Counted from the stretch's first letter, positions 17,380 through 64,000 are shown. The stretch: DNA of 64,000 bases from Candidatus Falkowbacteria bacterium (GCA_003518055.1 DOZJ01000006.1:43837-107836), one strand, 5' to 3'. The notes: a model not told the origin generated them from the letters alone. Numbers and translations: made by a program.

Positions 17380-17414
17380 TGAGGTTGGAGAGGCTGTTAT
17401 TAGGGAGGTTGGAG

Positions 17415-18170: not shown

Positions 18171-18205
18171 TTTGGGGTTAATGTCCAAACAACAGGAGGG
18201 TGGCG

Positions 18206-18670
18206 GTGGCAAAGAAAGAGGTTGTTTTCGGTCCATGGCGAGGGGTTCTTTATCCGGATGAAGGGAAAAATTTGTCATCTGGGCGAGTTCAGGGGAATTT
18301 GCGCAAGGGATATGATTTTGTAGCTTTGACTTATTCGGAGAAATTGGATTTGACCAAAGGCTGGTCGCGCCGGATGTCATATCATAAGGGCTATGTCGGC
18401 CGGGTGACTTATGGCACAGTCTTCTATACCCGAAATCAAGATCTGAAGCGATTGCTGGCTCAGGTACGTTACCGTCATTACGGCGGATGTCCGGGACCGG
18501 AGACGGAGAATTTTTTCCGGCAGGACGGTCAGTACGGCGTTTCGACCTTCTGTTCATTTTCGAGAGATTATCAAGATTTGGTTCGCCAGATCATTCAGAT
18601 GTTTCCGGAGCTTCAGACTCCGGCTGCTGGCCAGACGGAACAAGCGTCGACGGCGACAACGGAAGCTTAA
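18206..18670 (+). CDS. hypothetical protein (GTG start)
   Basis: ORF behind perfect promoter 18142-18170 and AGGAGG RBS. Confidence 0.4.
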   Translation: MAKKEVVFGPWRGVLYPDEGKNLSSGRVQGNLRKGYDFVALTYSEKLDLTKGWSRRMSYHKGYVGRVTYGTVFYTRNQDLKRLLAQVRYRHYGGCPGPETENFFRQDGQYGVSTFCSFSRDYQDLVRQIIQMFPELQTPAAGQTEQASTATTEA

Positions 18671-18863
18671 TGAGCTTCTTTTTTATTTTTACTCGCCAAA
18701 GGACGAGTCTGTCCTATGGCAGACAAAATTAAGGGATTATTTTTTACAAAAATTCAACATCTGGTTTGTTTTTTTTGTAAATACTGATTATTGATAATAT
18801 TGATTTTACTGTTATACAGCTGGACAATAAATGGGAGATGTTGTTTATTGCTGGTCAGCTTAT

Positions 18864-19373
18864 TTATTTTTTTATGCGGTAAAGGACATTGATCGTGTGG
18901 TCGTTTAATTTTTCGCACGAAATTAATTCCAAAGCAAGATCCAAATTCAGTTGGTCAACAAAACGCAGTCCGGAGCCAAAAATTTTCGGTTCGATGGTGA
19001 TTTGGATTTCATCAACCAGACCCGCTTCCAGAAATTTTGAATTGACAAAAGTCCCGCCGCCGATGATGACGAATTCAAATCCGCGGTGTTCCAGGTCTTG
19101 GAGGATGGTTTTCAAGTCGCCGCGTTTGTATTCGAGTATTCCCGGTTGATCTTGGTGTGTTTCATCTCGGGTTAATACAATGTTCAGCCGGCCGGGTAAT
19201 GGCCGGCCGATGGCTTCGTACGTGCTTTGGCCAAAAATCATCACGCCGGCTTCGGTGGTGATTTTTTTGTATAATGCCTGATCTTCTTTTGAGGTCCATT
19301 CCACCGGATTGTGATTGGAGTTTTTGGCGATCACGCCGTCGAGGGACATGACCATGATAATTCTAGTTTTCAT
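18864..19373 (-). CDS. dihydrofolate reductase family protein (RibD C-terminal-like fold)
   Basis: MSLDGVIA...IFG..TYE...PLPGR..IVLTR...F..IIGGG pattern; adjacent to thyA. Confidence 0.6.
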   Translation of the reverse strand: MKTRIIMVMSLDGVIAKNSNHNPVEWTSKEDQALYKKITTEAGVMIFGQSTYEAIGRPLPGRLNIVLTRDETHQDQPGILEYKRGDLKTILQDLEHRGFEFVIIGGGTFVNSKFLEAGLVDEIQITIEPKIFGSGLRFVDQLNLDLALELISCEKLNDHTINVLYRIKK

Positions 19374-19420
19374 ATTGCGAATATACTAATGTTATGAATA
19401 CTACGAAAACAAAATAAAAC
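19374..19420 (-). promoter_or_regulatory. TTCGTA-type repeat leader 5' of DHFR-like gene (no SD)
   Basis: minus-sense TTTTCGTAGTATTCATAACATTAGTATATTCGCAAT-ATG. Confidence 0.4.
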
Positions 19421-19466
19421 GGGACGGGTTGTTTTTGTAAAATTAGTAATCATTCGTTAATTTGTA

Positions 19467-20297
19467 TCACAGAACGATTTTCATGCCTTTGATGGGCGGC
19501 ATGGGGGCGTATTGTTTTTCCAGTTTATCAACGATTTCATAGACCAGACTTTCATCACCTTGTTCCGCTCGGGCAAAATATTCCGGCTGGGCTTCGAAGT
19601 AAATCGGCGAGTGAGTGTTGTTCCGCTCAACCAATTCCCAAGCGTGTTCATAATGGATGTCGTAGATGTGCGCGTTGCTGATTGAGTGGGTTAATTTGCC
19701 GGGCTGGACGCCAAGCCGAGCGGCCAGAATACATTGGAGGAGAGCAAAGCCGGCCACATCATGAGGGCAGCCGAGCATCATATCATTGCTGCGAACAATG
19801 CTGTGTATATGGAGTTTGTTGCCGATAATGTTGGCGGTCCAGGTGTACGGGCAGGGGACATTTTTTTTGGTTTCCGGATTACCGAGTCCATCCTCGCGCG
19901 GATCCCAAGTAATTACAACTCCGTGGCGAGAGCCCGGGCTGTCTTCAAGATGTTTGATCAATAATCCCAGTTGATCGCGGCCAAAGGCGCTGCGCCACCG
20001 ATGGCCATAAGCGGCCGGAATGGTGCCGTCTTGTTCCGTAAAAGCATCCCAGATTTTGGTGAATTTGCCGACAAACTCATCGGGTTTTTGGCTGCCCATA
20101 ATATACCAAATTTGTTCAGCGACAAAAATTTTAATCGGAATTTTTCGCAGGGTTAACAATGGAAAACCTTGATCCAATTCAAAAGTCAATCCGGGAATGA
20201 TTTTGGTGCTATGGCCGGTTCTCTCATTATACTCCTCAAATCCCTGATTCATAATCCGGAGGATGGCGTCTTTGAATTGTTGGTCGAATTGAGTCAT
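19467..20297 (-). CDS. thyA: thymidylate synthase
   Basis: PLLT.RK, VPCPYTW (active-site Cys), HIHSIVRSNDMMLG.PHDV, ISNAHIY motifs. Confidence 0.85.
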   Translation of the reverse strand: MTQFDQQFKDAILRIMNQGFEEYNERTGHSTKIIPGLTFELDQGFPLLTLRKIPIKIFVAEQIWYIMGSQKPDEFVGKFTKIWDAFTEQDGTIPAAYGHRWRSAFGRDQLGLLIKHLEDSPGSRHGVVITWDPREDGLGNPETKKNVPCPYTWTANIIGNKLHIHSIVRSNDMMLGCPHDVAGFALLQCILAARLGVQPGKLTHSISNAHIYDIHYEHAWELVERNNTHSPIYFEAQPEYFARAEQGDESLVYEIVDKLEKQYAPMPPIKGMKIVL

Positions 20298-47341: not shown

Positions 47342-47443
47342 AAAAATGTTGACCAAATTGGGGATAAGCGGTTCGGTTTTGTAGCAAAATTTGGTATAAT
47401 AAGTGCAACTTAGTTTGATCAAAAGTTTACAGCCAAAGATATT

Positions 47444-50400
47444 ATGGTGAAGATGAAAAAAAGGTTGGTGATATTAACCGGAATATTATTTATTTTTGTT
47501 TTTGGCGTAAGCTTTTTTTTAATTGATCGGACGGAGGCGTTGGTAACAAATGGCGCGAACGCGGTCAATCTGGTTGGACAGTATAGTGACGCGGGTGCGG
47601 TTGATTATACAAAGTCGGGAATCAATAATGGTCCGAATAATGAGGGGGTGAACACGCCGAATTTTTCGATTTTGGATGAACAAAATGATATATTTTTTGT
47701 TATTGATCAGGCGAATAATCGAGTGCTCGGTTATCAAGTGGATGCGGGGAATAATTTTGTTGATTATCAAGCCGATTATGTTCTCGGTCAGACGGATTTT
47801 AGCTCGGCGGATGAAGCAGATTCAGCCACGCAAGCAAATTTTTCCAATCCGAGCGGCTTGGCGATCGATCAGGGTGGCAGTAGGTTATTCGTGGCTGACG
47901 CCGGATTTAATCGAATTTTGATTTTTAATACTGACAGCATCGCGACCAACATGAATGCCAGTTTTGTTTTGGGGCAGGCTAATTTTACCGCGTCTGAGGC
48001 GGCTACGACGCAGGCCGGTTTGAGTTCACCGGAAGGGATTCATTTTGATGAAACTGATAACTTGTTGTATGTCGCGGATAAGAGCAATAACCGCGTTTTG
48101 ATTTACAGCGTGGCGGTCGGGACGGTTTCTAATGGTATGACTGCGTCGTATGTTTTGGGGCAGGCTAATTTTGTAAGTTCAGGGGCAGCGACTACTGCGG
48201 TGGGCTTGTCTGGTCCGACTGATGTTGATTACGCGAGTGATAATGATCATTTGTTTATCGCTGATGAAGGTAATAACCGAGTGATTATTCATAGTATTAC
48301 TCTGGAAGCTCCAATTGCTGACGGCCGGACGGCTGACAAGGTGTTTGGCCAGAGCAATTTTACATCTGGTGGCACTGGTAATGGGGCGGATCAGTTCAGT
48401 TCGCCATTTAGTGTGGCGGTTGATATTGCGAATGATCGGTTGTTTGTGACTGATCATGGTAACACGAGAATTCAATCTTTTGAGATTGCCACGATTGACA
48501 ACACGGAGAACGCGGCTGCTTCTTTGACTAGCATGACATCAAAAGCTCTGTTTTACATGGGTGTCAATGAATCGTTGGTGGTTGGTGAGCTTGAAGAACA
48601 TCGGGTGGCGAGGTATGACGCGGTGGTTTTGACACCGGGAGAATCGCCGGTAGAGGTTATTGGTCGAGTTGATGGCAGCGGCGATGATATTATTTCGGCT
48701 GATAATAACGCTAACAACGGCGCGAATAAATTGGGTTTGAGTGTTATTGGTGGAAGCGCGATTGATACCACCAATCATAGATTATTTGTCAGCGACACCA
48801 GTCATGATCGAGTTTTGGTTTATAATTTGACCGCTGGTGATATTTTGGCTGATTATACGCCGGATAATATTTTGGGCAAGACGGATTTTTATGACGCCAG
48901 CCAGACTGTTGTGACAGGATTGAATCCAGAGCAAAAAATTACTCAGCCCGGAGCTTTGGTTTATGAACAAGATACAAATTATTTATATGTGGCTGATAAT
49001 CGGCGGATTTTAGTCTTTAACGCGGCCAGTATTACTGACGGCGAGGCGGCGATAAATGTTTTGTGTCAAACCGCGTTCGCGAATATGGTTGACTCAACGG
49101 GGCAGGCTGAATGTTCGTCAGTCTCGGGTTTGGCCATAGATGAAACCAATAATCGATTGTTTGCTTCAGACGCCAGTGTCAGCCGCGTGATGGTTTTTGA
49201 CGTGGCGGAAATCGTTGATGGTGAAAACGCCACATATGTTTTGGGTCAGGGGCATTTCGGTGGTAGCGGAGTGGCTACGACTCAAGCAGGTTTGTCGGCG
49301 CCGAAAGGGTTGGCGTATGATTCAACGCAGGAGTATTTATTTGCCGCTGACAGCGGCAATAACCGAGTTGTTGTATATGATGTGGATACGATTTCCAATG
49401 GCGAAGACGCAGCCGCGGTTTTGGGGCAGGTTAACTATACTTCGTCCGGGGCTGATACGGATCGTAATTCTTTGAGTAATCCTTCGGCCGTTAGTGTCGA
49501 TACTAGCAATGGGCTGCTTCATGTGGCTGATACCACTAATAATCGGGTATTGTTTTTTGATGTTAATACTATTGCCAATGGTGAGTCGGCTCAATATGTT
49601 TTGGGCCAAAGTGGTTTTACAACCGCTACGGCCGCGACCACCCGGGCCGGTTTGAATACGCCGACAACGATTACTTTTAACTCTGGTTCGGATCGGATTT
49701 TGGTTGGAGATTCAGTCAATTATCGGATTATGGCGTTTGACGCGTCAATGACGACGAATAATGATCCAGCAACTCCGACTTTGAGCTCTCCGGCTGATTC
49801 AGCTGCCAGTGTGGCGATCAGACCGACGTGGCAGTTCTCGGCCACCGACGCTGATTCTGACGCCTTGTATTATGAATTGGAATTATCGGATACTACGACA
49901 TTTTATAATGTATTGTATCGGTTTGATTTGCGTGAAGATTATAAAGGATGGTCTCAGGTGTCAGCGTATGATTCTGGGGCTAGCGCGTCATTTATTCTGC
50001 CGGTCGGGGCAGCGCTTTCAACCAACACGACTTATTACTGGCGAGTGAGGGTGATTGACGTTCAGGGCGGCGTGTCGAGCTACAGCTCAGTGCGCAGTTT
50101 TACCACGGTGGATAATAGTACCACGGTTGATTACGCGGACACATTTGACAGCTCGGCTTATTTGGATACAACGAATACTACCGCGAAATATTATGATAAG
50201 GAAAATATTTCTATCCCCGCCACCTTTACTATAGGTTCGGCCGCAGCTATGTTCGGGGCGGGGGAAACAGTCGCGATGGTGGCTTTTGACGCGGATAATG
50301 ACGGTGATATCGATGTGGCGGTAAAAAATGAAGCTGGCACTACTAGTACCGTTTATATGAATAACGGCTCCGGAGTTTTTAGCGGCGGTGATACGCTCAA

Positions 50401-53400
50401 CGATTCAGTGGAGTCGGACAGGGCTTATATGGAATTTTTGTTCGCGGCCGATGTGGAGCTTGATGGTGATTTGGATATATTGGATCGTGACGGTTATATA
50501 TATACAAATGACGGCAGCGGTAATTTTACGGCGACAGACGGTCCTGATACTGGCGCGATTGGTGATTTTAATAATGATGGCTATATTGACGTGGTGGAGC
50601 CGAAGGCTGGTGGTGAGACAAAATTCATTTATATTAATGACGGCGAGGGTAATTTTACGGCGCTGAGTCCCAATCCCTTCGCGGATATTTCGGCGGACGT
50701 GATAAGTGATGCGTATGTTTTTGATATTGATCGCGACGGTTGGCTTGATATTGTCACGAATAATCAGAGCGGAACCAGCCGATTGTTTTTGAATGATGGG
50801 GATTTGACTTTTACTCAGAGTACACCGTGGGCAGCGGCAAATCTTACAAGGGTGGAGTTTGCGGATTTTGACGGCGACGGAGACATTGATTTGTTTGGAT
50901 TGCATCAGGGAATTGGTAAGGGTGTGTGGTTTAATGATGGCACAGGGTTGTTTTCGTCAAGAAATGCGGTTTCGACTGATTGTTATTTCCAAAATTTACA
51001 TTCGGTGGACTTGGAGGGTGACGGTGATCAAGATGTTTTGTGCGCGAGCGGAACCGCTACGAATTATTATTTGAGAAACAAAGGAAATGGAACATTTGAA
51101 ACTCAGGTGGCGGCTTTTGGGTCCAGCGGCACCTCAACTATCATTACCGCAGACGTTGATGGCGACGGAGATCAGGATGTTTTGGTTGGTAATGGTGATG
51201 GTGGTGAGAACCCGGTGGTCAATATTCAAAATTATTTATACAAAACAAGCGCGAATAGAATAATCTCGGCGACAGCTTTGGATGCGGATACAAATGTCAG
51301 GGCGGCTTTTGATTCAGATAATGACGGTGATGTTGATTTGTTTGCGACCGAGACGGAAAATGATTCAGGGCGTTTGTGGATCAATGATGGCGACCAGTCG
51401 TATACCGAACAAACGGGGTTTTCGGATTATGTATCCACGTTAGAGGCCGCGGATGTGGATGGTGATGGAGATCTGGATATGGTAGAGGGGCTTAATGGTT
51501 TTAGTGATAAATTGTGGCTTAATAACGGCTCCAATTCATTTACCAATATGGGGACGTTGTTTGGCGCCAATGATTATAACGCCACAGTAATCAAATCCGG
51601 AGATGTGGATAATGATGATGATATTGATTTCCTCTTTGTGTATGAATCTCAAATTCCAGAGATTTGTTTAAATGATGGCACCGGGTTGGTTTATACTTGT
51701 TCTAACGTGGATACATCAAGTTCGGATACCCGGACAGGGGCGGATTTTGGCGATGTGAATAAAGACGGTGTATTGGATTTGGTTATTAATTATGAATCAA
51801 ATGTAGTTAAGGTCTATACCGGTGATGGTGATGGCACATTCACCAGTTCGGCGACAATTTCATCGGATAATGGTCGTCTGGATTTGGGTGATTTGGATAA
51901 TGACGGGGATTTGGATTTTTTGGTTGGCACCGGCACGCCCGGAATGACAGCGTATTTGAACAACGGCAGCGGTAGTTTTGAATCCGGAGTTTCGATCACA
52001 ACGTGCGGCAACCGCGGATATTCTTTGGTTGATATGAATCGTGATGGCAAATTGGACATCTTGATCGCGTGCAATTCGGGGAATTCTCAACTGTGGGAGA
52101 ACCACGGCTATATGAGTTTTGTGAAACAGGCGTCATTGCTGGCTGACGGCGGCACAGTTAAATATTTTGTCTCAGCTGATTATGATCTTGATGGGGATAT
52201 GGATGTTTGGTCGGTTCGAGATGAGGCGGGCGCGGAAAACGGCTATCGTTTTGATCAAAAACAAACATATACGGCCAGTACGGAGTATTTGGTTTATTCG
52301 GGGACGATTGACACGGCGGTGGCGGCGAATACGTTCAAATCTGCAATTTTGTCTTCTGATGATTATACTCCCAGCGGAGCGAGCATTTTGTATTATATGG
52401 CCACTCAAGGGGCTGATTATCAATGGCTTGTAAGAAACGTAGGGACGACAGCTAATTTGTACGCCACGGCAGTCTATGGCTCCGTTGATGAGGCGGCTTA
52501 TGGCGATGTGGTCGGATCATCAGGGGTTTATTACAGTACGGCGGATACCGGAGCGACTTGGTCGAATACGAATTTTGGGATTACTGAGACGATTTTTGAT
52601 ATTATTGCGGTAGTTGAGGATGCGCCTTTATTTGTCGGGGCGAGTGGTTTGGTTTATGACGCCGGTTCAGTCACGGAAACTTGTTTGTCTGGAGAAGTTC
52701 GGATTACTGGTAATAATTTAAATGATTTATCAAATTATGTGTCGGGTGAAACGACCAAGGCGTACGCGGTTGGATCCGCTGGCACGGCTATTGGAATCGA
52801 TTTGTCCGGTTATCCAACGATTGCGTGTTCGGCCCTGACTACCGGCGTGGCAACCAATTTGAACGGAGTCGATATTATTGCGGGTGATCAGACAGATATT
52901 GTGACTGTTGGTGATCGGGTTGATGGCGGCAATGGTTTGATTCTGACGTCGACTGATAATGGTGCCAATTGGACGGTCCGAGCCAGTGGAGTGGCTCAAA
53001 ATTTGAATGCAGTTACGGCCGATACGGCGTCCGGTTTGATGATTGCTGTTGGCGATGGTGGTACAATAATCCGATCCACCGATTCCGGAGTGAACTGGAC
53101 AGGCGTGACTTCTGGTACGGCAGAAAATATCAATGATGTTATATTTAAATTTGAAGATTCAACAGAAGTTTGGGCGGCCGCTGATAACGATAAAGTTTTA
53201 TTGAGTACTGATTCAGGCGTAACTTGGACTGTAATCAGCACCTTATCCGGCGTCGATTGGTATGCCGTGGCTGAAAAAGACGGAGCGGTGTTTGTGGCCG
53301 GAGAGGCCGGCAAGATGATTGTCTATGATGATTACGCTATTTCATGGGAGGGACCGATTGTGAACGGTAATAATTTGAATTTTGGCGATGCTGGAACCAT

Positions 53401-56400
53401 CTTGCAGTGGAAGGCGGTCATGACAACAACCAATGTGAATAATCCGCCGTTAATCAGGGCGATGACCATAGATTACAATACAACAGTGGTGGGCGGTTCA
53501 AGCCAGCCAGCCACACCGGATGAGGAACCGGTCCAAACAGCCCCGACCGCTCCGGCGGTTGGCAGCGCGGTGGTTCTGTCGGCTGATTCGATTCGATGGA
53601 CATTTACCGATACGTCAAATAATGAAACCGGGTTTCGACTCTATGATGAAAACGGAGTTTTGATCAATCAGGTGGCGACAGCGAATTTGAGTTTTATTTT
53701 GGAAGAAACTTTGACACCGAATACCAGATATAATCGGTTTGTCACTTCATATAATGATAGTGGGGAGAGCGAAAGGGTTGATTTGGGCGTGTTTTATACT
53801 CTATCAGCTCAACCGGTGATAAATAATATATACGTGACATCTGACACTTCGGTAGCGATGGAGCTCGGTGAAAACGGCAATTCGGCTGATACTTTATATG
53901 CGATTTATGAAACCGTTACCAATCAATGGGTGCAAATAAACGGCAAGTTAGGAACTGGACGATTTGATCGAACATATGCTTCTTGGGTGGATAATGGGGT
54001 TGTGCCGATTGTTGATCTGATGAATGGTCAGGAATATGTTTTTTCGGTGGTGGCCAAAAATAGCGCCAATCAAGATTCTCAATATTCAAATTCATTTACG
54101 ATAAAAGTGACCAGACCCATCGGGGCTAATGTGGTAGCAACGAAAAAGGTGGGTATAAACTCGGCGGACGGCGATAATTTTGCTCAGGGAATTTTCTTTG
54201 GTACGCCGGTATACGCTTACGGCGGCCGAGCGCAATTGATCAAGACGTTGCCGTTCTTTTCCGAGGTAGCCAATGGTTATTTGGTTGGGGCAATTATCTT
54301 TTTGATAATCTTTATTATCGGTTTGATTTTTAACTCAGCTGATAAATGTGCTTGGTCTGAACGGCTTAGCCGGTTTAGACATACGCCAAAAATTATTTTT
54401 AGCGATTGGCGGTCAAAGCGCGGCGATGATGTTTATGAAATATTAAACGGTCAGAGTGAACCAAAGCTTGGAGACAAATACAAGAAACATCATCGATTGT
54501 ATCGATATACTGGCTTGACGATGACCTGTCTTGTGGTGGGAGTGATTTTGAAAGTGGTGATTGCCGGTTTGATTTTGGTTTTGCTTTATACTAATTTCGG
54601 TGTTCAAGCTTTTACCAATCAAAGTGGAGAGCCGGTGTTTTCAGGTGATGAATTGGTGTATCACATTGAATATGTTAATAACGGTCAGGCGGCAGCGGAA
54701 AATTTGGTGATTACGGATAACCTGCCTCAAGGAACTTCATATATAGTTGGAAGCGTAAATCTTAACGGCCTAGGTCAAACTGATACTGTCGGTGATGATA
54801 GCTGTTCGGCGGTGGCGGGGCATATTGAGTGCCGGGTCGTTTCTCTCGGAGCCAGTGGATCCGGATATATGGAATTCAAGGCCTTGGTGACGGGTGCGAT
54901 TGATGAGGCGGTGATTAATTTCGCTTCAGTTAATTATACTGGATTAGCTTCGCCTCGATCGTCAAATTCAGTCACCAATGTAATTGCCGAGATGCCGATT
55001 GCCGAATGCGCGGATGGAGTTGATAATGACGGTGATAACTTGGTGGATTATCCCCTTGATTATGGTTGCGTGGATGAGAGTGACACCAGTGAGAATTCGG
55101 ATATATTTATTGATCAGGGTCAGGTGGTTGATGTCAGCCTTACCGGAGATTGGAGATATTTCAATATGATGGAAACGGCGACCGCCAGATTTATTCATCG
55201 AAGCGCTTCACACCAAGTAACTCTCATGAATGCCGATAAGGTTGGCAATAAAGTCACATTAATGGTTCAAAGTGCTCCGATAACTGTGAATGTGGCGACT
55301 GGAGGCAATGTTCAGGTCGATACCGATGCTAATGGGGTAAATGATCTTGGTTTGACAGTCTTGGCAGTGATTAGCGAGGATCAAGCGGTGGTTGGATTAC
55401 AAACCATTACCGAACAAGTGTATCAATGCAACGATGGATTGGATAATGATAGTGATGGATTGATTGATTTTGGTGCTGATCTCGGCTGCTCGTCCGCAAC
55501 AGATAATGTTGAATATACCGCCCCTGTGATTCCAGAAGATGTGCCGGAAGAAATACCGGAAGAAATTCCGGAAGAAATACCAGAGGAAACTCCGGATGAA
55601 ACCACGGATAGTACGACTGAGTCCAGCGGTGGTGTTTCTGAATGTAATGATTTGGTCGATAACGATGGTGATGGATTGATCGATTATCCGACTGACGGCG
55701 GCTGTTCAAACGCGTCTGATACCAGCGAGGTTGATGAATTAATTCCAGATAACGTAATTGATACAATTGAAGATTCCCTTGATGATATTAACACGCAGAT
55801 TGATGATTTGAATCGGAGACTTGAGGAGTCAGATTCAGTAACTGAAACAGTTGCTTTGAGTATTGAGAAAACGACAAAACAAATACAAATGATTTCGGTT
55901 GAGACAGCTCAAACCGTGGTGCAGTCAGTGCAGTTTGTCAATGAAAAAGTCTTGAATAATCCGGCGGTAGAATCCGCGACGGCCAAAGCGGCGGCGCCGA
56001 CCATGATAACTTTTACGGCTTTAGGTATAGCTAATGTGGCCACGGCGACTGCCACAGCCGGAGCTGGAGCAGCCAGCGGGTTTGGCGTTCTGACTTATTT
56101 GCAGTATTTTGCAGTTCAGCCGCTGCTCCTCTTCACGCGGAAAAAACGCGAGCGTTGGGGGGTCGTGTATGACGCGATTACCAAACGGCCGGTGCCTTTG
56201 GCGATTGTTAGAATATATGACAAGAATACAGGACGGATTATCGGTACCAAGGTGTCGGATCAGAGTGGTCGTTATCAGTTTATAGTTGATTCGGGTGAGT
56301 ATTATATTGAAATATCCAAAGATCAATATCGATTCCCGTCAGAAATTTTGTACGGGCAGGAGCAGGATGAGAAATATTACGGCTTGTATCACGGTCAAAC

Positions 56401-57064
56401 AATTGTGGCGGATGAAAAATTGGTGTTGAATTATAATGTTCCGATTGATCCGAATAAAAAAGCGCAGGCGCCGGCCAAGGAAATCAGATCAAAAGTATTC
56501 AAACAGACGCAATACGTCTTTTCAATGATTGGGCCGCTTGGGGCATTGTTCTCGTTATTTGTGGCGCCGACTTGGTGGGTGGCTGCTCTATTGGTTGTTC
56601 AATTGTTCTTGATATTCTCTTTCCGAAAGGCGGCGATTCCGGCCAAATTGAAGAATTGGGGCTTGGTTGTTGACAGCGACTCCGGCCAGCCGATAAATCG
56701 TGCGATCGTGAGAATCTTTGACTCCAAGTACAATAAATTATTGGAAAGTCAGGTTACAGGGAGAAAGGGGCGTTATGGCTTCCTTGTAACAAAGAATGAA
56801 TACTATTTGACTACGATCAAGGATGGTTACACTGGATACCGATCAGAAAATATTCCGGTAGTTGATGAAGATGGCGGTTTGATTACCAAGACGGTGGAAT
56901 TAAAGAAAGAATCAAATAGTGTGAAAGGGGATCGGTTGGGTACAGGGTCGTTAGAACAAATAAGATCAGTTGACACCGATCAAACCGAAAAGTTTTCGCA
57001 CGAAAATACTGGCGCAAAACCAAATGGTTTGGACTCGGAGAGTAAAACTGATTCGCAGGCTTAA
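47444..57064 (+). CDS. giant (3206 aa) multidomain cell-surface protein, with NHL, FG-GAP, BNR, FN3, DUF11, TSP3-like Ca-binding and CarbopepD_reg-like modules and internal TM helices
   Basis: single uninterrupted frame; N-terminal signal anchor; repeats NNRVL/NNRVI (NHL), DxDGDGDxD (14x FG-GAP), STD(N/S)G(A/V)NWT (BNR), C.DG.DNDGDGLIDYP.D.GC (3x), PEEI x4 linker. Confidence 0.8.
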   Translation: MVKMKKRLVILTGILFIFVFGVSFFLIDRTEALVTNGANAVNLVGQYSDAGAVDYTKSGINNGPNNEGVNTPNFSILDEQNDIFFVIDQANNRVLGYQVDAGNNFVDYQADYVLGQTDFSSADEADSATQANFSNPSGLAIDQGGSRLFVADAGFNRILIFNTDSIATNMNASFVLGQANFTASEAATTQAGLSSPEGIHFDETDNLLYVADKSNNRVLIYSVAVGTVSNGMTASYVLGQANFVSSGAATTAVGLSGPTDVDYASDNDHLFIADEGNNRVIIHSITLEAPIADGRTADKVFGQSNFTSGGTGNGADQFSSPFSVAVDIANDRLFVTDHGNTRIQSFEIATIDNTENAAASLTSMTSKALFYMGVNESLVVGELEEHRVARYDAVVLTPGESPVEVIGRVDGSGDDIISADNNANNGANKLGLSVIGGSAIDTTNHRLFVSDTSHDRVLVYNLTAGDILADYTPDNILGKTDFYDASQTVVTGLNPEQKITQPGALVYEQDTNYLYVADNRRILVFNAASITDGEAAINVLCQTAFANMVDSTGQAECSSVSGLAIDETNNRLFASDASVSRVMVFDVAEIVDGENATYVLGQGHFGGSGVATTQAGLSAPKGLAYDSTQEYLFAADSGNNRVVVYDVDTISNGEDAAAVLGQVNYTSSGADTDRNSLSNPSAVSVDTSNGLLHVADTTNNRVLFFDVNTIANGESAQYVLGQSGFTTATAATTRAGLNTPTTITFNSGSDRILVGDSVNYRIMAFDASMTTNNDPATPTLSSPADSAASVAIRPTWQFSATDADSDALYYELELSDTTTFYNVLYRFDLREDYKGWSQVSAYDSGASASFILPVGAALSTNTTYYWRVRVIDVQGGVSSYSSVRSFTTVDNSTTVDYADTFDSSAYLDTTNTTAKYYDKENISIPATFTIGSAAAMFGAGETVAMVAFDADNDGDIDVAVKNEAGTTSTVYMNNGSGVFSGGDTLNDSVESDRAYMEFLFAADVELDGDLDILDRDGYIYTNDGSGNFTATDGPDTGAIGDFNNDGYIDVVEPKAGGETKFIYINDGEGNFTALSPNPFADISADVISDAYVFDIDRDGWLDIVTNNQSGTSRLFLNDGDLTFTQSTPWAAANLTRVEFADFDGDGDIDLFGLHQGIGKGVWFNDGTGLFSSRNAVSTDCYFQNLHSVDLEGDGDQDVLCASGTATNYYLRNKGNGTFETQVAAFGSSGTSTIITADVDGDGDQDVLVGNGDGGENPVVNIQNYLYKTSANRIISATALDADTNVRAAFDSDNDGDVDLFATETENDSGRLWINDGDQSYTEQTGFSDYVSTLEAADVDGDGDLDMVEGLNGFSDKLWLNNGSNSFTNMGTLFGANDYNATVIKSGDVDNDDDIDFLFVYESQIPEICLNDGTGLVYTCSNVDTSSSDTRTGADFGDVNKDGVLDLVINYESNVVKVYTGDGDGTFTSSATISSDNGRLDLGDLDNDGDLDFLVGTGTPGMTAYLNNGSGSFESGVSITTCGNRGYSLVDMNRDGKLDILIACNSGNSQLWENHGYMSFVKQASLLADGGTVKYFVSADYDLDGDMDVWSVRDEAGAENGYRFDQKQTYTASTEYLVYSGTIDTAVAANTFKSAILSSDDYTPSGASILYYMATQGADYQWLVRNVGTTANLYATAVYGSVDEAAYGDVVGSSGVYYSTADTGATWSNTNFGITETIFDIIAVVEDAPLFVGASGLVYDAGSVTETCLSGEVRITGNNLNDLSNYVSGETTKAYAVGSAGTAIGIDLSGYPTIACSALTTGVATNLNGVDIIAGDQTDIVTVGDRVDGGNGLILTSTDNGANWTVRASGVAQNLNAVTADTASGLMIAVGDGGTIIRSTDSGVNWTGVTSGTAENINDVIFKFEDSTEVWAAADNDKVLLSTDSGVTWTVISTLSGVDWYAVAEKDGAVFVAGEAGKMIVYDDYAISWEGPIVNGNNLNFGDAGTILQWKAVMTTTNVNNPPLIRAMTIDYNTTVVGGSSQPATPDEEPVQTAPTAPAVGSAVVLSADSIRWTFTDTSNNETGFRLYDENGVLINQVATANLSFILEETLTPNTRYNRFVTSYNDSGESERVDLGVFYTLSAQPVINNIYVTSDTSVAMELGENGNSADTLYAIYETVTNQWVQINGKLGTGRFDRTYASWVDNGVVPIVDLMNGQEYVFSVVAKNSANQDSQYSNSFTIKVTRPIGANVVATKKVGINSADGDNFAQGIFFGTPVYAYGGRAQLIKTLPFFSEVANGYLVGAIIFLIIFIIGLIFNSADKCAWSERLSRFRHTPKIIFSDWRSKRGDDVYEILNGQSEPKLGDKYKKHHRLYRYTGLTMTCLVVGVILKVVIAGLILVLLYTNFGVQAFTNQSGEPVFSGDELVYHIEYVNNGQAAAENLVITDNLPQGTSYIVGSVNLNGLGQTDTVGDDSCSAVAGHIECRVVSLGASGSGYMEFKALVTGAIDEAVINFASVNYTGLASPRSSNSVTNVIAEMPIAECADGVDNDGDNLVDYPLDYGCVDESDTSENSDIFIDQGQVVDVSLTGDWRYFNMMETATARFIHRSASHQVTLMNADKVGNKVTLMVQSAPITVNVATGGNVQVDTDANGVNDLGLTVLAVISEDQAVVGLQTITEQVYQCNDGLDNDSDGLIDFGADLGCSSATDNVEYTAPVIPEDVPEEIPEEIPEEIPEETPDETTDSTTESSGGVSECNDLVDNDGDGLIDYPTDGGCSNASDTSEVDELIPDNVIDTIEDSLDDINTQIDDLNRRLEESDSVTETVALSIEKTTKQIQMISVETAQTVVQSVQFVNEKVLNNPAVESATAKAAAPTMITFTALGIANVATATATAGAGAASGFGVLTYLQYFAVQPLLLFTRKKRERWGVVYDAITKRPVPLAIVRIYDKNTGRIIGTKVSDQSGRYQFIVDSGEYYIEISKDQYRFPSEILYGQEQDEKYYGLYHGQTIVADEKLVLNYNVPIDPNKKAQAPAKEIRSKVFKQTQYVFSMIGPLGALFSLFVAPTWWVAALLVVQLFLIFSFRKAAIPAKLKNWGLVVDSDSGQPINRAIVRIFDSKYNKLLESQVTGRKGRYGFLVTKNEYYLTTIKDGYTGYRSENIPVVDEDGGLITKTVELKKESNSVKGDRLGTGSLEQIRSVDTDQTEKFSHENTGAKPNGLDSESKTDSQA

Positions 57065-57084
57065 CCATTATCAGGTAAAGATAA

Positions 57085-57111
57085 AATCACCGGCTATAAC
57101 CGGTGATTTTT
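57085..57111 (+). terminator. terminator of giant-protein gene (AATCACCGG-CTATAA-CCGGTGATT-TTTT)
   Basis: hand-folded. Confidence 0.65.
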
Positions 57112-61849: not shown

Positions 61850-62110
61850 TTTGGATTTATGCGCCATAGGACGCATCCCTGCCTACCGGCAGGCAGGTGT
61901 CCTTTGGCAGAGAATTTAAAATTTAATGTGGATCGGTGGTGTAGTTGGTTAACACACCTCCCTGTCACGGAGGAGATCACGGGTTCGAGTCCCGTCCGGT
62001 CCGCCAGCCTACGCTCTTACTGCGTAGAGCTTCGGCTGGCGAGCCAAAGTTAGCGATTCATTTTACTTTGTAGAGCTTCGTCTGCCTGCCGGCAGGCAGG
62101 GTTGGAAAGT
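61850..62110. repeat. GC-rich dispersed repeat copies flanking tRNA-Asp (palindromes at 61878-61897 and 62081-62100; CTACGCTCTTACTGCGTAGAGCTTCGG at 62010-62036)
   Basis: same family as 1800-2050, 35762-35905. Confidence 0.65.
61930..62006 (+). tRNA. tRNA-Asp (anticodon GTC), CCA encoded
   Basis: hand-folded cloverleaf: acceptor GGATCGG/CCGGTCC, anticodon arm CCTCC-CTGTCAC-GGAGG, T-arm ACGGGTTCGAGTCCCGT, discriminator G + CCA. Confidence 0.85.
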
Positions 62111-62304: not shown

Positions 62305-64000
62305 ATGGCGTTAGCAGAACAATTTTCACAACCAACTCCAATCAAAAAAGATCGGCCCAAGCTTGAAGCGGTGCCGGTTGGAGAAAAATCAGCAAAAAAG
62401 ATTGAATTGTTTCAGGAAGAACCGGGCATGGCGCGTAAATTTAAGGAATTATTGGAGCGGAAAAAACAGGCAATCCAAAATATTATTGATCAATATTTGA
62501 AAAAATTGGATACTGGCGCCAAGGCGACAGAATTTTCTGATTTGATCAATTCATTACCAGTGTCGGTCAGACGACAGATGAAAGTAGATGGGATGCTTGA
62601 ACTGATGCTCAATCCCAAGAAGAATACGGCTGAAGTCAAAGAGCATTTGGAGCTGCATGGCGCAGATATGATTAGAAGATTTGACAAGCAAGCAGGGGAT
62701 CAGAGGACGATGCTTCATCGGGAGTTGGTGGATGAAGCTCGTAAAACTTCTCGAGAAGATCGTGAATCGAAAATCAATAAATACCGCGACGATTTGGCTC
62801 GAGTGCGAGAAAAAATCACGGCCCTCAGAGAAGCGGCGGATCAAAAGAAAACGGTTGTTAAGGAACAAGCAGGTCGAGAAGAAGACGCAGCGCTTGCAGC
62901 GGTGAGTGAAAGTGCGGATGAATATCGGCGAAAAAAAGATCAAGCTGATTCTGCGGAAGCAGACCAGCTGATAGAACAAGTTGGAGCAACAACCGATCGG
63001 CAGCGAGAACGGGCGGCGGCGTTTGAGAAAAAGCTGGACAAAGTCAAAGATTTTTCCGGTTTGTACAAGATGATCGCGAAGGAATTCAAGGCGATGACTC
63101 GAACTGAAATTGTTGACGGCAAGAAAAAGAAAATCAAAGAAATCGTGGTCGGTACCAATAAATATGATTTGGGCGAAATTAAACAGATTTTAGACGCGTT
63201 TTCCAAGCATAAGGATTTTACCCCCAAGACACCGCTTTTGGCATTTTTGCCGTATGAAGGGGGAATTGCCAATAAAGCTAAGGAATTATTGCTCGATAGA
63301 CAATTAAAAGGCATTTCGCGCACCGAATTGGAAGATATCCGCTATCGAATGGAAGGCAAGGGTGAAGCTTTTGATAAGGCGTATGACAAGCGCGGGGAAT
63401 TAGCGGCCGATAAAACAAAAGCAGAAATCGAGGCGGCGGGACTGGACGACGCGGGCGAAGGTAATATTGAGGCGGAAAAGCAGGAAAGGGTCTATAAAAC
63501 GCAAAAGAAAGCGGAACAAGTTGAAACCAAAAAAATGAAAAAATTGGCTAACACAGACATGCCAGATTATGAAAATGATATTTACGAGTTGATGAAGGTG
63601 GAAGGATCGTCGGAGCAGGAAGCCATGCAGCGGGTAGCTGGACTACATGGACTGAAATACAAGGAGTTGAAAAAAATAATGAAAGGCAAAGATTTTTCTT
63701 CAATGGAAAGAAAAGGGACGAAAGCCATAGAATCCAGAGCAGAACAACGTCAGCAGTATGAACAGCGGGTTGAGGCGTTGGAAAAAATGGAAAATCGGAT
63801 TGTCAGTGGCCAAGGATTTTTGACGGAAAAAGAACAAACTGTGCTTGAAGACAAGGGTTTTGAGGCTTTTGCCGGAATGCATAAAAACAAGATCAGCCGC
63901 TGGCCACTTAATCGTGAGCGCCGTGTGTTTATGGAGCAAGTCAAACAATGGCAGAAATTAAAACGCGAAGTGGATACGTTGTGGAATCCTGATTTTGAAG
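62305..64000 (+). CDS. hypothetical charged/coiled-coil protein, 3'-truncated by window end (not in supplied ORF track)
   Basis: ATG 62305 opens a frame with no stop through position 64000 (>560 codons); promoter TTGCGC-17-TATAAT at 62225-62253. Confidence 0.5.
   Translation, partial: MALAEQFSQPTPIKKDRPKLEAVPVGEKSAKKIELFQEEPGMARKFKELLERKKQAIQNIIDQYLKKLDTGAKATEFSDLINSLPVSVRRQMKVDGMLELMLNPKKNTAEVKEHLELHGADMIRRFDKQAGDQRTMLHRELVDEARKTSREDRESKINKYRDDLARVREKITALREAADQKKTVVKEQAGREEDAALAAVSESADEYRRKKDQADSAEADQLIEQVGATTDRQRERAAAFEKKLDKVKDFSGLYKMIAKEFKAMTRTEIVDGKKKKIKEIVVGTNKYDLGEIKQILDAFSKHKDFTPKTPLLAFLPYEGGIANKAKELLLDRQLKGISRTELEDIRYRMEGKGEAFDKAYDKRGELAADKTKAEIEAAGLDDAGEGNIEAEKQERVYKTQKKAEQVETKKMKKLANTDMPDYENDIYELMKVEGSSEQEAMQRVAGLHGLKYKELKKIMKGKDFSSMERKGTKAIESRAEQRQQYEQRVEALEKMENRIVSGQGFLTEKEQTVLEDKGFEAFAGMHKNKISRWPLNRERRVFMEQVKQWQKLKREVDTLWNPDFE

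What the first reader, a model, noticed from the sequence alone, without database searches (positions are those of the whole stretch)
47444..57064. 3206-aa mosaic surface protein with propeller, lectin-like, Ca-binding and CarbopepD-like modules plus internal TM helices
Domain order and an operon context for a candidate host-attachment protein.

A single 9.6-kb frame carries, in order:
- a signal anchor;
- about 10 NHL-type repeats (..NNRV(L/I)..);
- about 14 FG-GAP/VCBS-like DxDGDGDxD repeats;
- at least 3 BNR/Asp-box repeats (STDxGxNWT);
- FN3-like stretches;
- two hydrophobic helices, a DUF11/CARDB-like module, then three Cys-flanked DNDGDG(L)IDYP units (TSP3/dockerin-like Ca sites);
- a (PEEI)4 acidic linker and a coiled coil;
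- a C-terminal block of TM helices alternating with two carboxypeptidase-regulatory-like beta-sandwiches.

A secreted adhesin-like ectodomain combined with multiple late TM segments is an unusual topology. Giant surface proteins are thought to mediate host attachment in episymbiotic small-genome bacteria. The gene sits in an apparent operon, lgt then the giant gene then DUF62 SAM hydrolase.
Basis: partly seen in the sequence, partly recalled or inferred. Interest (0 to 1): 0.7.

Follow-up and report, generated by a model that had tools for sequence, protein, structure and literature searches.

The report
Giant multi-pass surface protein of Falkowbacteria
This is a real, intact 3206-residue gene of a groundwater Patescibacteria (Falkowbacteria-like) bacterium that encodes a giant cell-surface protein, probably an adhesin; it is held in the membrane by a conserved internal helix pair and by a C-terminal anchor module that thousands of other Patescibacteria surface proteins share and that has no family model or mention in the libraries I searched.

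Summary
**Observation: confirmed.** The ORF 47444-57064 is intact and encodes 3206 aa. The identical protein is encoded on independently assembled contigs from three metagenome samples.
- NHL: 12 blade motifs.
- FG-GAP: 14 Ca loops.
- Three Asp-boxes.
- DUF11/CLIPPER.
- Three Cys-flanked DNDGDG loops.
- A PEEI linker.
- Two CarboxypepD_reg sandwiches between hydrophobic segments.

**Not supported:**
- No TSP3 or dockerin family match.
- No lgt-giant-DUF62 operon. The gene has its own extended -10 element and a strong terminator. There is no lipobox. The SAM hydrolase neighbour is absent from three other Falkowbacteria loci.

**New here:**
- The odd topology is conserved. At least 9 collinear orthologues (30-49% identity, 2504-3602 aa) keep the internal TM-loop-TM element and the C-terminal module.
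- The ~330-aa module is always C-terminal. It occurs in more than 3000 protein clusters, and every named one is from Patescibacteria.
- Charge distribution predicts that both β-sandwiches lie in the cytoplasm.

**Best reading:** a membrane-riveted giant adhesin. The function is inferred from domain content only.

**Novelty and interest:** a new variant of a known kind (giant CPR surface proteins). Interest is moderate.

The parts
47392..47400 (+). Extended -10 promoter-like element, TGGTATAAT, in the 102-nt gap between the lgt stop codon and the giant gene start.
   Evidence: Read directly from the sequence. The consensus scan did not list it because there is no good -35 hexamer.
47444..57064 (+). 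Giant gene: 3206 codons plus TAA.
   Evidence: The identical protein is encoded on independently assembled contigs from three samples.
47444..47539 (+). Signal peptide, aa 1-32. It has a KMKKR n-region, a 20-aa h-region and a TEA|LV site. It is probably cleaved rather than acting as an anchor.
   Evidence: Kyte-Doolittle peak 2.83. Ala at -1 is conserved in 10 of 10 orthologues. Cleavage itself is inferred.
47540..49768 (+). NHL region, aa about 33-775. Twelve blade-like motifs suggest two six-bladed β-propellers.
   Evidence: Pfam NHL E 2e-30, plus Arylesterase, Lactonase and SGL propeller models. NHLRC2 in the PDB matches at E 8e-13. The blade count and the split into two propellers are inferred from motif spacing.
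49817..50107 (+). Ig-like domain, aa 792-888.
   Evidence: PF25788 Ig_Rha78A_N scores 32.5 bits against a cut-off of 27.4.
50231..52363 (+). FG-GAP/VCBS region, aa about 930-1640. Fourteen DxDxDG Ca loops spaced about 48 aa apart suggest two seven-bladed, integrin-α-like propellers.
   Evidence: FG-GAP_3 E 8e-64 with 10 stretches. Fourteen loops at aa 949-1579. The split into two propellers is inferred.
52511..53578 (+). Asp-box (BNR) propeller-like region, aa about 1690-2045. It has three exact SxDxGxxW boxes and one loose one.
   Evidence: Motifs. Sortilin-Vps10 6e-7, PSII_BNR 4e-4 and BNR 0.025 are all below their cut-offs. Ycf48 in the PDB matches at E 4e-4. No FRIP or RIP sialidase motif is present.
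53621..54238 (+). FN3-like stretch, aa about 2060-2265.
   Evidence: Only weak here: fn3 E 1e-3, below cut-off. Several collinear orthologues carry fn3 (PF00041) in the precomputed domain lists, and P0149 carries it as an unmarked, strong hit; where in those proteins the hit lies is not given.
54275..54586 (+). Conserved internal TM-loop-TM element. TM2 is aa 2278-2296. The loop is aa 2297-2362, 66 aa long and basic (14 K/R against 8 D/E), so presumably cytoplasmic. TM3 is aa 2363-2381.
   Evidence: Kyte-Doolittle peaks 2.88 and 3.08. The loop alignment has conserved His, Tyr, Asp and Gly positions. A ~145-aa HMM of the element finds it in about 20 proteins at E 1e-22 to 1e-64.
54608..54976 (+). 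DUF11/CLIPPER domain (CnaA-like stalk domain), aa about 2389-2511.
55007..55705 (+). Membrane-proximal Ca-loop region. It contains three C-x19-C units with DNDxDG (aa 2522-2542, 2662-2682, 2734-2754), a ~100-aa β-sandwich (aa 2554-2654) and the acidic PE(E/D)(I/V) x5 linker (aa 2697-2716).
   Evidence: Regex matches. The 12-nt tandem repeat is at 55544-55601. The β-domain has pLDDT 80-88, but the Cys units are below 50. The unit plus β-domain recurs as a repeat in many Myxococcota, Xanthomonadales and archaeal proteins. This region varies between orthologues.
55748..55954 (+). Helical stalk, aa 2769-2837. Two long helices lie just before the anchor.
   Evidence: The model shows H515-541 and H545-583 with pLDDT 80-93. 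Weak coiled-coil family hits appear.
55958..56902 (+). C-terminal anchor module, aa about 2839-3153. In order: an NPxVE motif; a weakly hydrophobic 46-aa segment; a polybasic RKKRER-WG stretch; CarboxypepD_reg sandwich 1 (aa 2906-3003); a TM hairpin (aa 3025-3065); and CarboxypepD_reg sandwich 2 (aa 3073-3153).
57083..57110 (+). Intrinsic-terminator-like hairpin beginning 19 nt after the stop codon.
   Evidence: An 11-bp stem, -16.8 kcal/mol, z -6.2, with 0 of 200 shuffles folding as well. Sequence.

Best explanation
The gene encodes a giant, membrane-riveted cell-surface protein of a Falkowbacteria-like Patescibacterium. It most likely acts as an adhesin or receptor for the surface of a host cell or substrate.

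**Proposed layout**
1. A Sec signal peptide is cleaved (inferred).
2. A free N-terminal arm of about 2250 aa is displayed outside the cell. It carries, in order, two NHL propellers, an Ig-like domain, two integrin-like Ca-binding FG-GAP propellers, an Asp-box propeller and FN3-like domains.
3. The chain crosses the membrane at TM2, forms a conserved 66-aa basic cytoplasmic loop, and returns at TM3.
4. A second external loop of about 470 aa follows: CLIPPER stalk domain, disulfide-closed Ca loops, a β-sandwich, an acidic linker and a helical stalk.
5. The chain re-enters at the C-terminal module. Charge distribution predicts that this module places two transthyretin-like β-sandwiches on the cytoplasmic face, joined by a helical hairpin that dips into the membrane.

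**Proposed mechanism (inferred)**
- Folded cytoplasmic domains and several membrane passes would stop the huge ectodomain being pulled out under load.
- They could also couple it to cytoplasmic partners.
- The same C-terminal module is the common anchor of thousands of other Patescibacteria surface proteins.

**Shown:** ORF integrity, domain content, conservation of the architecture, and the spread of the module.

**Inferred:** signal-peptide cleavage, topology, Ca binding, adhesion and any ligand.
For: - **Intact ORF.** It is recovered in independent assemblies.
- **Ectodomain families.** They are typical of binding and adhesion proteins, with good statistics: NHL 2e-30, FG-GAP_3 8e-64, and DUF11 and TIGR01451 above their cut-offs.
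- **Conserved architecture.** End-to-end collinear orthologues at 30-49% identity keep every membrane segment. The internal loop has conserved residues, and its HMM recovers about 20 proteins.
- **The C-terminal module.**
  - 10,875 hits at E <= 1e-3 and 3001 at E <= 1e-30 among 1.84 billion cluster representatives.
  - In 175 full-module proteins of 369-4040 aa, the module is always at the C-terminus (median tail 11 aa). Of these, 128 have an N-terminal hydrophobic signal.
  - Every named carrier is from Patescibacteria.
- **Topology.** Across 176 modules:
  - the flank before the first hydrophobic segment has net charge -1.3;
  - the 8 residues after it carry 4.8 K/R on average;
  - both flanks of the hairpin are basic.
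  - The TM2-TM3 loop is net +6.
- **Literature.** Giant CPR membrane proteins with DUF11, integrin and fibronectin domains have been proposed as host-attachment factors (PMC8080830). Tn-seq in Saccharibacteria found that epibiotic growth requires multiple adhesins (PMC10633639). CLIPPER domains form stalks of fibrillar adhesins (bioRxiv 10.1101/2025.04.25.650565).
Against: - No functional, expression or localisation data exist for any family member.
- The adhesin role rests on domain analogy alone. No ligand-binding site was identified.
- The topology rests only on hydropathy and the positive-inside rule.
  - The first hydrophobic segment of the module is weak (Kyte-Doolittle below 1.6 here) and 35-46 aa long.
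  - AF2 models it as two low-confidence helices. A hairpin there would put the β-sandwiches outside the cell, which is where transthyretin/CnaB-like domains usually sit.
- Falkowbacteria have no cultured representative and no known host.
- The Ca-loop units could not be modelled (pLDDT below 50).
Confidence: 0.55

Rival explanations
1. Envelope-architecture protein rather than a host adhesin. The giant protein, and the wider family that shares its C-terminal module, would build or space the cell envelope. It would act as an S-layer-like or wall-associated scaffold tethered to the membrane, with no specific host ligand.
For: - The anchor module is carried by thousands of proteins with very varied and often small ectodomains. 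This suggests a general envelope-display system.
- The locus is syntenic and the orthologues are conserved over 30-49% identity. That is more like a housekeeping envelope component than a fast-evolving host-range factor.
Against: - The SlaB match is a generic β-sandwich similarity (rmsd 12 Å).
- Propeller arrays of the NHL, FG-GAP and Asp-box types are typical ligand-binding modules.
- There is no SLH or other S-layer family hit.
- A single-copy 3206-aa protein is an unlikely lattice subunit, and only one module copy occurs in the 64-kb window.
Confidence: 0.2
2. Surface-tethered enzyme for scavenging. The propellers would be catalytic: the NHL/SGL/arylesterase-type propellers as lactonases or lyases, and the Asp-box propeller as a glycosidase. 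The protein would then degrade host or environmental polymers rather than merely bind them.
For: - The NHL region also matches Arylesterase (1e-17), Lactonase (3e-11) and SGL (3e-10).
- The Asp-box region weakly matches NF045728 'F510_1955 family glycosylhydrolase' (2e-10) and a BNR glycosyl hydrolase in the PDB (E 0.06).
Against: - All of these are shared-fold matches. The NCBIfam hit scores 40 bits against a cut-off of 175.
- No FRIP or RIP sialidase motif is present.
- The best PDB relatives of the Asp-box region are the non-enzymatic Ycf48 assembly factors.
- The NHL hits in the PDB are binding proteins: NHLRC2, TRIM71 and LRP.
Confidence: 0.1
3. Integrin-like transmembrane signalling receptor. 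Ligand binding by the FG-GAP or NHL head would be transmitted through the TM2/TM3 pair to the conserved cytoplasmic loop and the cytoplasmic β-sandwiches. These would recruit or regulate cytoplasmic machinery, so adhesion would be secondary to signalling.
For: - The 66-aa loop between TM2 and TM3 keeps conserved His, Tyr, Asp and Gly positions across 30%-identity orthologues. It is a recognisable ~145-aa element in about 20 proteins.
- Charge statistics put two folded domains in the cytoplasm.
Against: - No kinase, GGDEF, HAMP or other signalling domain occurs in the protein or in conserved neighbours.
- The loop is modelled with low confidence.
- The cytoplasmic placement is inferred only.
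- This reading overlaps with the main explanation and is not exclusive of it.
Confidence: 0.12
4. Artefact. The 9.6-kb frame would be two or three adjacent genes joined by an assembly or sequencing error: a ~2300-aa protein with a C-terminal anchor, followed by an ordinary ~870-aa family member with its own N-terminal anchor.
For: - Most carriers of the C-terminal module are 400-1300 aa, with an N-terminal signal and no internal TM pair.
- The region from aa ~2340 onward therefore resembles a complete family member.
Against: - The identical uninterrupted protein is found in independent assemblies from different samples.
- Nine or more distant orthologues are collinear across the junction. The junction itself is a conserved ~145-aa element.
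- An ancient fusion is possible, but it is now a fixed single gene.
Confidence: 0.02

Closest known systems
Giant membrane proteins of CPR bacteria proposed as host-attachment factors (Vampirococcus lugosii, Moreira et al. 2021, PMC8080830)
   Same: - Reduced-genome Patescibacteria.
- Proteins of 1392-4163 aa predicted to be membrane-localised.
- The same kinds of domain (DUF11, integrin/FG-GAP, fibronectin).
- The same proposed role, also inferred from domains only.
   Different: - A different CPR lineage (Absconditabacteria, not Falkowbacteria).
- That paper does not describe an internal TM-loop-TM element or a C-terminal TM/CarboxypepD_reg module.
- I did not test sequence homology to those specific proteins.
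Orthologous hypothetical proteins: A2223_00310 of Ca. Falkowbacteria RIFOXYA2_FULL_35_8 (P0121, 3148 aa) and UT32_C0003G0015 of Parcubacteria GW2011_GWC2_39_14 (P0149, 3386 aa)
   Same: - Collinear over the whole length (49% and 31% identity).
- The same five hydrophobic regions and the same domain order.
- P0121 sits in the same PrmC-RF1-L31-YtxH-lgt context.
- P0149 sits next to the same L20-L35-IF3-SmpB block.
   Different: - The membrane-proximal Cys-rich region differs. Other orthologues carry 3-5 'CGDxxCNGxETCxxCxxDCGxC' repeats, or TSP3-like 'DxDxDGVGDxCD' stretches, in place of two of the three DNDGDG units.
- All are annotated only as hypothetical proteins.
Gram-positive fibrillar adhesins and pilins with CnaA/CnaB-type stalk domains (SdrD, RrgB, BcpA; CLIPPER adhesin B9T28_05395, PDB 9IFR)
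   Same: - An N-terminal binding head, a stalk, then an anchor.
   Different: - Those proteins are anchored by LPXTG/sortase or by OmpA-like domains. Here there is no LPXTG-like motif, and anchoring is by multiple TM segments.
- Isopeptide-forming residues could not be assigned here.
- The CnaB-like sandwiches are predicted to be cytoplasmic rather than part of the external stalk.
Integrin α subunits and bacterial FG-GAP/VCBS proteins
   Same: - Seven-bladed-type FG-GAP repeats with DxDxDG Ca loops: 14 of them, at about 48-aa spacing.
- A membrane-anchored ectodomain with short cytoplasmic elements.
   Different: - No β-subunit partner, no I-domain, and no GFFKR-type motif examined.
- The similarity is at repeat level only. 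The best PDB hit is CRTAC1 at E 1.5e-4.
Giant surface proteins of wall-less, reduced-genome Mycoplasma: Gli349 and Gli521 of M. mobile, and the P1 adhesin (from my own knowledge, not tested here)
   Same: - Proteins of thousands of residues in tiny genomes.
- Anchored directly by TM segments.
- They mediate attachment to host surfaces, and their cytoplasmic portions contact internal structures.
   Different: - No sequence relationship was tested or is expected.
- Different domain content.
- Patescibacteria have a cell wall.

Membership tests
NHL repeat β-propeller (PF01436) | Repeated ~28-aa NHL units scoring above the Pfam gathering cut-off. | tested here: met
   103.6 bits against a cut-off of 20, E 2e-30, with 4 separately scored stretches. 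Twelve blade-like NxR(V/I) motifs. PDB NHLRC2 matches at E 8e-13.
FG-GAP / VCBS repeat (PF13517, PF01839) | Tandem FG-GAP units with a DxDxDG Ca-binding loop, scoring above cut-off. | tested here: met
   FG-GAP_3 scores 212.6 bits against 26.9, with 10 stretches. FG-GAP scores 39.5 against 22.1. Fourteen loops at 38-54 aa spacing. Ca binding itself was not tested.
BNR/Asp-box propeller (PF02012, Sortilin-Vps10, Ycf48) | SxDxGxxW boxes repeated within a propeller, with HMM scores above cut-off. | tested here: inconclusive
   Three exact boxes and one loose box. All models score below cut-off: Sortilin 29 against 33, PSII_BNR 20.3 against 27, BNR 14.9 against 27. Ycf48 in the PDB matches at E 4e-4. 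No structure model was made.
Fibronectin type III (PF00041) | HMM score above cut-off. | tested here: inconclusive
   19.4 bits against a cut-off of 25. Several orthologues carry fn3 in precomputed lists.
DUF11 / CLIPPER (PF01345, TIGR01451) | HMM score above cut-off and a CnaA-like β-sandwich fold. | tested here: met
   [not shown]
DUF11 / CLIPPER (PF01345) | Intramolecular Lys-Asn isopeptide bond with a catalytic Asp. It is present in only some members. | tested here: inconclusive
   No significant sequence alignment to 9IFR, so the triad could not be assigned. A conserved SNSVTN motif is present, but no conserved Lys lies at the domain start in orthologues. The source paper says some DUF11 domains lack the bond.
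CarboxypepD_reg / transthyretin-like domain (PF13620) | HMM score above cut-off and a seven-stranded transthyretin-like sandwich. | tested here: met
   [not shown]
Thrombospondin type 3 repeat / dockerin | A match to the TSP_3 or dockerin HMMs. | tested here: not met
   No hit at E <= 0.1 in the whole protein or in the segments that contain the units. The PDB sequence search found nothing relevant. Only the generic DxDxDG motif is shared.
Acidic double-disulfide repeat (NF033662) | Score above the NCBIfam cut-off, and two disulfides per unit. | tested here: not met
   28.6 bits against a cut-off of 41. Each unit here has only two Cys, which means one disulfide.
Bacterial lipoprotein (Lgt substrate) | A lipobox, L-[ASTVI]-[GAS]-C, at the end of the signal peptide. 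| tested here: not met
   There is no Cys in the first 540 residues.
Sortase-anchored (LPXTG-type) surface protein | An LPXTG-like motif, followed by a hydrophobic segment and a basic tail at the extreme C-terminus. | tested here: not met
   No [LIVN]P.[TSA][GANS] motif occurs anywhere. A hydrophobic segment followed by RKKRER exists, but about 300 further residues follow it. The conserved NPxVE motif upstream remains unexplained.
Operon lgt - giant gene - SAM hydroxide adenosyltransferase (DUF62) | Co-transcription signals and conserved gene adjacency. | tested here: not met
   There is a promoter-like element upstream and a strong terminator at the gene's end. SAM_HAT is absent downstream in L004, L007 and L009. 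lgt is absent upstream in L005 and L006.
Patescibacteria C-terminal TM/β-sandwich anchor module (unnamed; defined here by profile A1) | A full-length match to the ~333-position profile at the C-terminus. The order is: hydrophobic segment, polybasic-WG, sandwich, TM hairpin, sandwich. | tested here: met
   The window protein matches profile positions 2-325 at E 1.6e-136, but it was the first row of the alignment from which the profile was built, so this score is not independent. Independent support is the single-sequence search: 45 of 240 collected proteins match aa 2840-3170, 33 of them over most of its length. The family is described.

The most novel reading that the evidence does not exclude
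The ~330-aa C-terminal module would be a previously undescribed, Patescibacteria-wide system for displaying surface proteins. A stop-transfer helix and a membrane-dipping hairpin would place two transthyretin-like β-sandwiches inside the cell. There they would act as a mechanical rivet, or as a docking or clustering site, for thousands of different ectodomains. In this reading the giant family adds a second conserved cytoplasmic element, the TM-loop-TM insert. The protein would then be a true transmembrane coupler between the host-contact surface and the symbiont's cytoplasm. The fixed-position NPxVE motif might be a processing or recognition site.
Probability: 0.25. Interest if true: 0.75.

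Novelty: new variant of a known kind. Interest (0 to 1): 0.45.

Why it matters
Patescibacteria make up a large share of bacterial diversity and are thought to live attached to other cells. Outside Saccharibacteria type IV pili, almost nothing is known about how they attach.

This analysis turns one 'hypothetical protein' into three testable objects:
1. A conserved orthologous family of ~3100-3600-aa multi-pass surface proteins in Falkowbacteria and Parcubacteria. Their domain map shows which modules could be expressed for binding assays.
2. A very abundant, lineage-restricted C-terminal anchor module (more than 3000 clusters). It could serve as a sequence tag to list the displayed surface proteome of any Patescibacteria genome.
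3. A specific topological prediction, that the β-sandwich domains are cytoplasmic. This would be an unusual way to anchor adhesins if confirmed.

It also removes a misleading lead, the lgt/DUF62 operon.

Tried and rejected
**Tool failures and empty results**
- The search for related loci with alignment A1 failed because no stretch was conserved enough. The single-sequence scan of genome contigs found only 4 loci. It named the closest genomes but gave no taxonomic survey.
- The listing of cluster members reported the exact sequences as absent, even though look-up of encoding contigs found them. I did not pursue this.
- PDB sequence searches with the Cys-loop region and with the DUF11 domain gave nothing significant. 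The TSP3/dockerin claim and the isopeptide triad could therefore not be settled by alignment.
- The AF2 model of aa 2255-2845 used only 9 sequences and was poor overall (mean pLDDT 61). It says nothing reliable about the Cys loops or the cytoplasmic loop.

**Ideas considered and rejected**
- A recent gene fusion or assembly artefact.
- Lipoprotein status (no Cys near the N-terminus).
- Sortase substrate (no LPXTG-like motif, and no sortase among the ORFs of at least 150 aa in the window that I scanned against Pfam).
- Sialidase (no FRIP motif).

**Literature**
- Searches for the anchor module or this protein family found no description.


Full report

Yes. The frame 47444..57064 (+) is the only long ORF in that span. 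It runs 3206 codons from ATG to TAA without a stop. From the base composition of the region, the chance of that is about 1e-87. The identical 3206-aa product is called on contigs from independent assemblies: a 354-kb ENA contig, a 144-kb JGI contig and a 34-kb groundwater contig.

**2. Domain content**

I ran Pfam on the whole protein and on eight segments and NCBIfam on six segments.

- *NHL.* E 2e-30 over aa 1-780, with the overlapping propeller models Arylesterase, Lactonase and SGL. Motif counting gives 12 NxR(V/I)-type blades, probably two six-bladed propellers.
- *Ig-like domain.* Ig_Rha78A_N at aa 792-888, above its cut-off.
- *FG-GAP.* FG-GAP_3 at E 8e-64. There are 14 DxDxDG loops from aa 949 to 1579 at about 48-aa spacing, probably two seven-bladed propellers.
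- *Asp-box region.* Three exact SxDxGxxW boxes lie at aa 1836, 1878 and 1921. The BNR, Sortilin and Ycf48 models all score below their cut-offs. The best solved relative is Ycf48 at E 4e-4.
- *FN3.* Weak only, about 1e-3.
- *DUF11.* Above cut-off, and TIGR01451 scores 44.9 bits against 24. Pfam has since renamed DUF11 'CLIPPER', a CnaA-like stalk domain of fibrillar adhesins that in many members carries an isopeptide bond (bioRxiv 10.1101/2025.04.25.650565).
- *CarboxypepD_reg.* Two stretches, 43.7 bits against a cut-off of 32.3.
The linker is encoded by a 12-nt tandem repeat.

The 'TSP3/dockerin' label is not supported:
- There is no hit to those models at E <= 0.1.
- The only hit is sub-threshold, to NF033662 'acidic double-disulfide repeat'.
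- Nothing in the PDB matches by sequence.
- The AF2 model of these units is below pLDDT 50.
- What is shown is a disulfide-closable loop carrying the generic DxDxDG calcium-loop motif.

**3. Hydrophobic segments**

Kyte-Doolittle scans give strong segments at aa 9-27, 2278-2296 and 2363-2381, and a ~41-aa hairpin at aa 3025-3065. A weaker 46-aa segment lies at aa 2852-2897.

The N-terminal segment is followed by TEA|LV. All ten orthologues have Ala at -1 and a small or aliphatic residue at -3, followed by a conserved (T/S)(D/N)GxxAVN(L/M)xGQ start. I therefore read it as a cleavable signal peptide rather than a signal anchor. This is inference.

**4. Relatives**

*Search with aa 2270-3206.* The last ~330 residues recur at the C-terminus of many 600-1270-aa Patescibacteria proteins. 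These have an N-terminal signal and varied ectodomains. The Cys-unit plus β-domain recurs as a repeat in Myxococcota, Xanthomonadales and archaeal proteins.

*Search with aa 1-2340.* This found full-length orthologues:
- P0121 (3148 aa, Ca. Falkowbacteria RIFOXYA2_FULL_35_8, 49% identity, one HSP covering aa 1-3158).
- P0149 (3386 aa, Parcubacteria GW2011_GWC2_39_14).
- P0157, P0168, P0150, P0147, P0152, P0182 and P0186.

All are collinear and all have the same five hydrophobic regions.

*The internal element.* The region around the internal helix pair aligns well. Conserved His, Tyr, Asp and Gly positions lie in the 66-aa loop, which is net +6. An HMM of this ~145-aa element recovers about 20 proteins at E 1e-22 to 1e-64.

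The internal 'two hydrophobic helices' are therefore a conserved element of a protein family. They are not a junction artefact. An ancient fusion of a C-terminally anchored protein with an ordinary family member is a plausible origin. That follows because most module carriers lack the element.

*Closest named genomes.* Over the module these are Ca. Falkowbacteria CG10_big_fil_rev_8_21_14_0_10_39_11 (82%) and RIFOXYC2_FULL_36_12 (64%). The window is from a Falkowbacteria-like organism.

**5. The C-terminal module**

- *Abundance.* A 28-sequence alignment (A1) was searched as a profile against 1.84 billion cluster representatives. It gave 10,875 hits at E <= 1e-3, 5190 at <= 1e-10 and 3001 at <= 1e-30. 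Nearly all of the top 150 cover profile positions ~2-325.
- *Position.* Among 175 proteins with a full module, lengths range from 369 to 4040 aa. The module is always terminal (median 11 residues after it), never duplicated, and 128 proteins show an N-terminal hydrophobic signal.
- *Taxonomy.* Every named hit is from Patescibacteria: Nomurabacteria, Pacebacteria/Paceibacterota, Taylorbacteria, Parcubacteria and Falkowbacteria. NCBI calls them only 'carboxypeptidase regulatory-like domain-containing protein'.
- *Existing models.* Pfam and NCBIfam cover only the two β-sandwiches and have no model for the whole unit.
- *Conserved sequence features.* WGxVYD...TKxPxDxAxV...TDxxGRY in sandwich 1. 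A polybasic-WG junction is present in 155 of 176 modules. An NPxVE motif is present in 103 of 176, at a fixed 47-60 residues upstream of the polybasic site.

**6. Topology (inferred)**

Across 176 modules:
- The 16 residues before the first hydrophobic segment have net charge -1.3.
- The 8 residues after it carry 4.8 K/R on average.
- The flanks of the hairpin are both basic: +3.6 before, and about 4.7 K/R after if the terminal FRK/FRR is counted.

By the positive-inside rule, the first segment crosses once from outside to inside. The hairpin starts and ends in the cytoplasm, so both β-sandwiches are cytoplasmic. With the basic TM2-TM3 loop this gives a self-consistent map:

(signal peptide) - outside arm I - TM - inside loop - TM - outside loop II - TM - inside sandwich - hairpin - inside sandwich.

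The caveat is real. The first segment is weakly hydrophobic and 35-46 aa long, and AF2 draws two helices there. If it is a hairpin, the sandwiches are outside the cell, where such folds usually occur. No topology predictor was available to me.

**7. Genomic context**

RF1, PrmC and L31 lie further upstream.
- *Transcription signals.* The giant gene looks like its own transcription unit.
  - TGGTATAAT sits in the 102-nt upstream gap.
  - An 11-bp hairpin (-16.8 kcal/mol, z -6.2) begins 19 nt after the stop codon.
  - TTGACA-17-TAAGAT lies ahead of SAM_HAT.
- *Conservation of adjacency.*
  - The closest orthologue's locus keeps PrmC-RF1-L31-YtxH-lgt-giant, but is followed directly by the helicase.
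  - Two other Falkowbacteria loci also lack SAM_HAT downstream.
  - Distant orthologues lack lgt upstream.
- *No functional link.* The protein has no Cys before aa 541, so it is not an Lgt substrate. The adjacency is lineage synteny, not a functional operon.

**8. What it most likely is and does**

The best reading (confidence about 0.55) is a giant surface adhesin or receptor.
- The outer arm is an array of ligand-binding propellers.
- The membrane-proximal part is a mechanically robust stalk: CLIPPER domain, Ca loops and helices.
- The membrane part is a multi-pass rivet shared with thousands of other Patescibacteria surface proteins.

This agrees with published views. CPR membrane proteomes are enriched in giant proteins carrying DUF11, integrin and fibronectin domains that probably mediate host recognition (PMC8080830). 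Epibiotic growth needs several adhesins (PMC10633639). None of this is demonstrated for this family.

The rivals are:
- an envelope scaffold;
- a tethered enzyme;
- a signalling receptor, which overlaps with the main reading;
- an artefact, which is refuted.

**9. Novelty and score**

- Giant CPR adhesin-like proteins are a known kind. This gene already sits in public databases as a hypothetical protein with orthologues.
- I did not find three things described in the libraries or papers searched:
  - the conserved internal TM-loop-TM element;
  - the recognition of the ~330-aa C-terminal unit as one very abundant, lineage-restricted anchor module;
  - the prediction that its β-sandwiches are cytoplasmic.
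- I rate it a new variant of a known kind, with interest 0.45.
- The most novel reading still open is a Patescibacteria-wide display and rivet system with cytoplasmic coupling. I give it about 0.25 probability, and it would merit about 0.75 interest if true.

Noticed in passing
window 13212-14507 (-), with 16198-20297 (-): A single 431-aa ORF fuses thymidylate kinase (aa 10-206) to thymidine kinase (aa 236-409). It sits in a cluster of pyrimidine deoxynucleotide genes: an AAA_17 kinase, dCMP deaminase, dCTP deaminase, DHFR and ThyA.
   Followed up: no
window 4793-10113 (-): A MacB-type exporter set: two MacB_PCD/FtsX permeases, an ABC ATPase and a 614-aa HlyD-like membrane-fusion protein. A tripartite-pump adaptor is odd in a presumably single-membrane Patescibacterium.
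   Followed up: no
window 921-1799 (+), with 1-2000: A tyrosine recombinase (phage-integrase family) lies in the only low-GC stretch of the window, 0.35 against about 0.44-0.50 elsewhere. This may be the edge of a mobile element.
   Followed up: no
window 62305-64000 (+), continuing off the window; L001 24862-26883: A 673-aa ORF with no Pfam match. In L001 and L002 it lies between the helicase and the L20-IF3-SmpB block. A tRNA lies just upstream at 61930-62003.
   Followed up: partly
window 55958-55972 (aa 2839-2843), and modules of P-series proteins: An NPxVE motif occurs in 103 of 176 C-terminal modules, at a fixed 47-60 residues before the polybasic-WG junction. Motif, hydrophobic segment, then basic cluster recalls a sortase-type sorting signal. 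About 300 residues follow it here, though, and its role is unexplained.
   Followed up: partly
P0382 and P0387: Some short carriers of the C-terminal module have a PF07963 (N_methyl, prepilin-type) N-terminus in the precomputed Pfam lists. This hints that a few family members may be processed like type IV pilins.
   Followed up: no
Orthologues P0149, P0150, P0147, P0152, P0182, P0186, P0168 (alignment A2): The membrane-proximal region is swapped between orthologues. They carry 3-5 tandem 'CGDxxCNGxETCxxCxxDCGxC' cysteine-rich repeats, or TSP3-like 'DxDxDGVGDxCD' and (GDDTT)n stretches, in place of two of the DNDGDG units. This is the fastest-changing part of an otherwise collinear protein.
   Followed up: partly
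L008 and L010: Module-like matches (41% and 38% identity) lie on contigs of MAGs labelled Gammaproteobacteria and Saprospiraceae. These are either mis-binned Patescibacteria contigs or rare occurrences outside the phylum.
   Followed up: no
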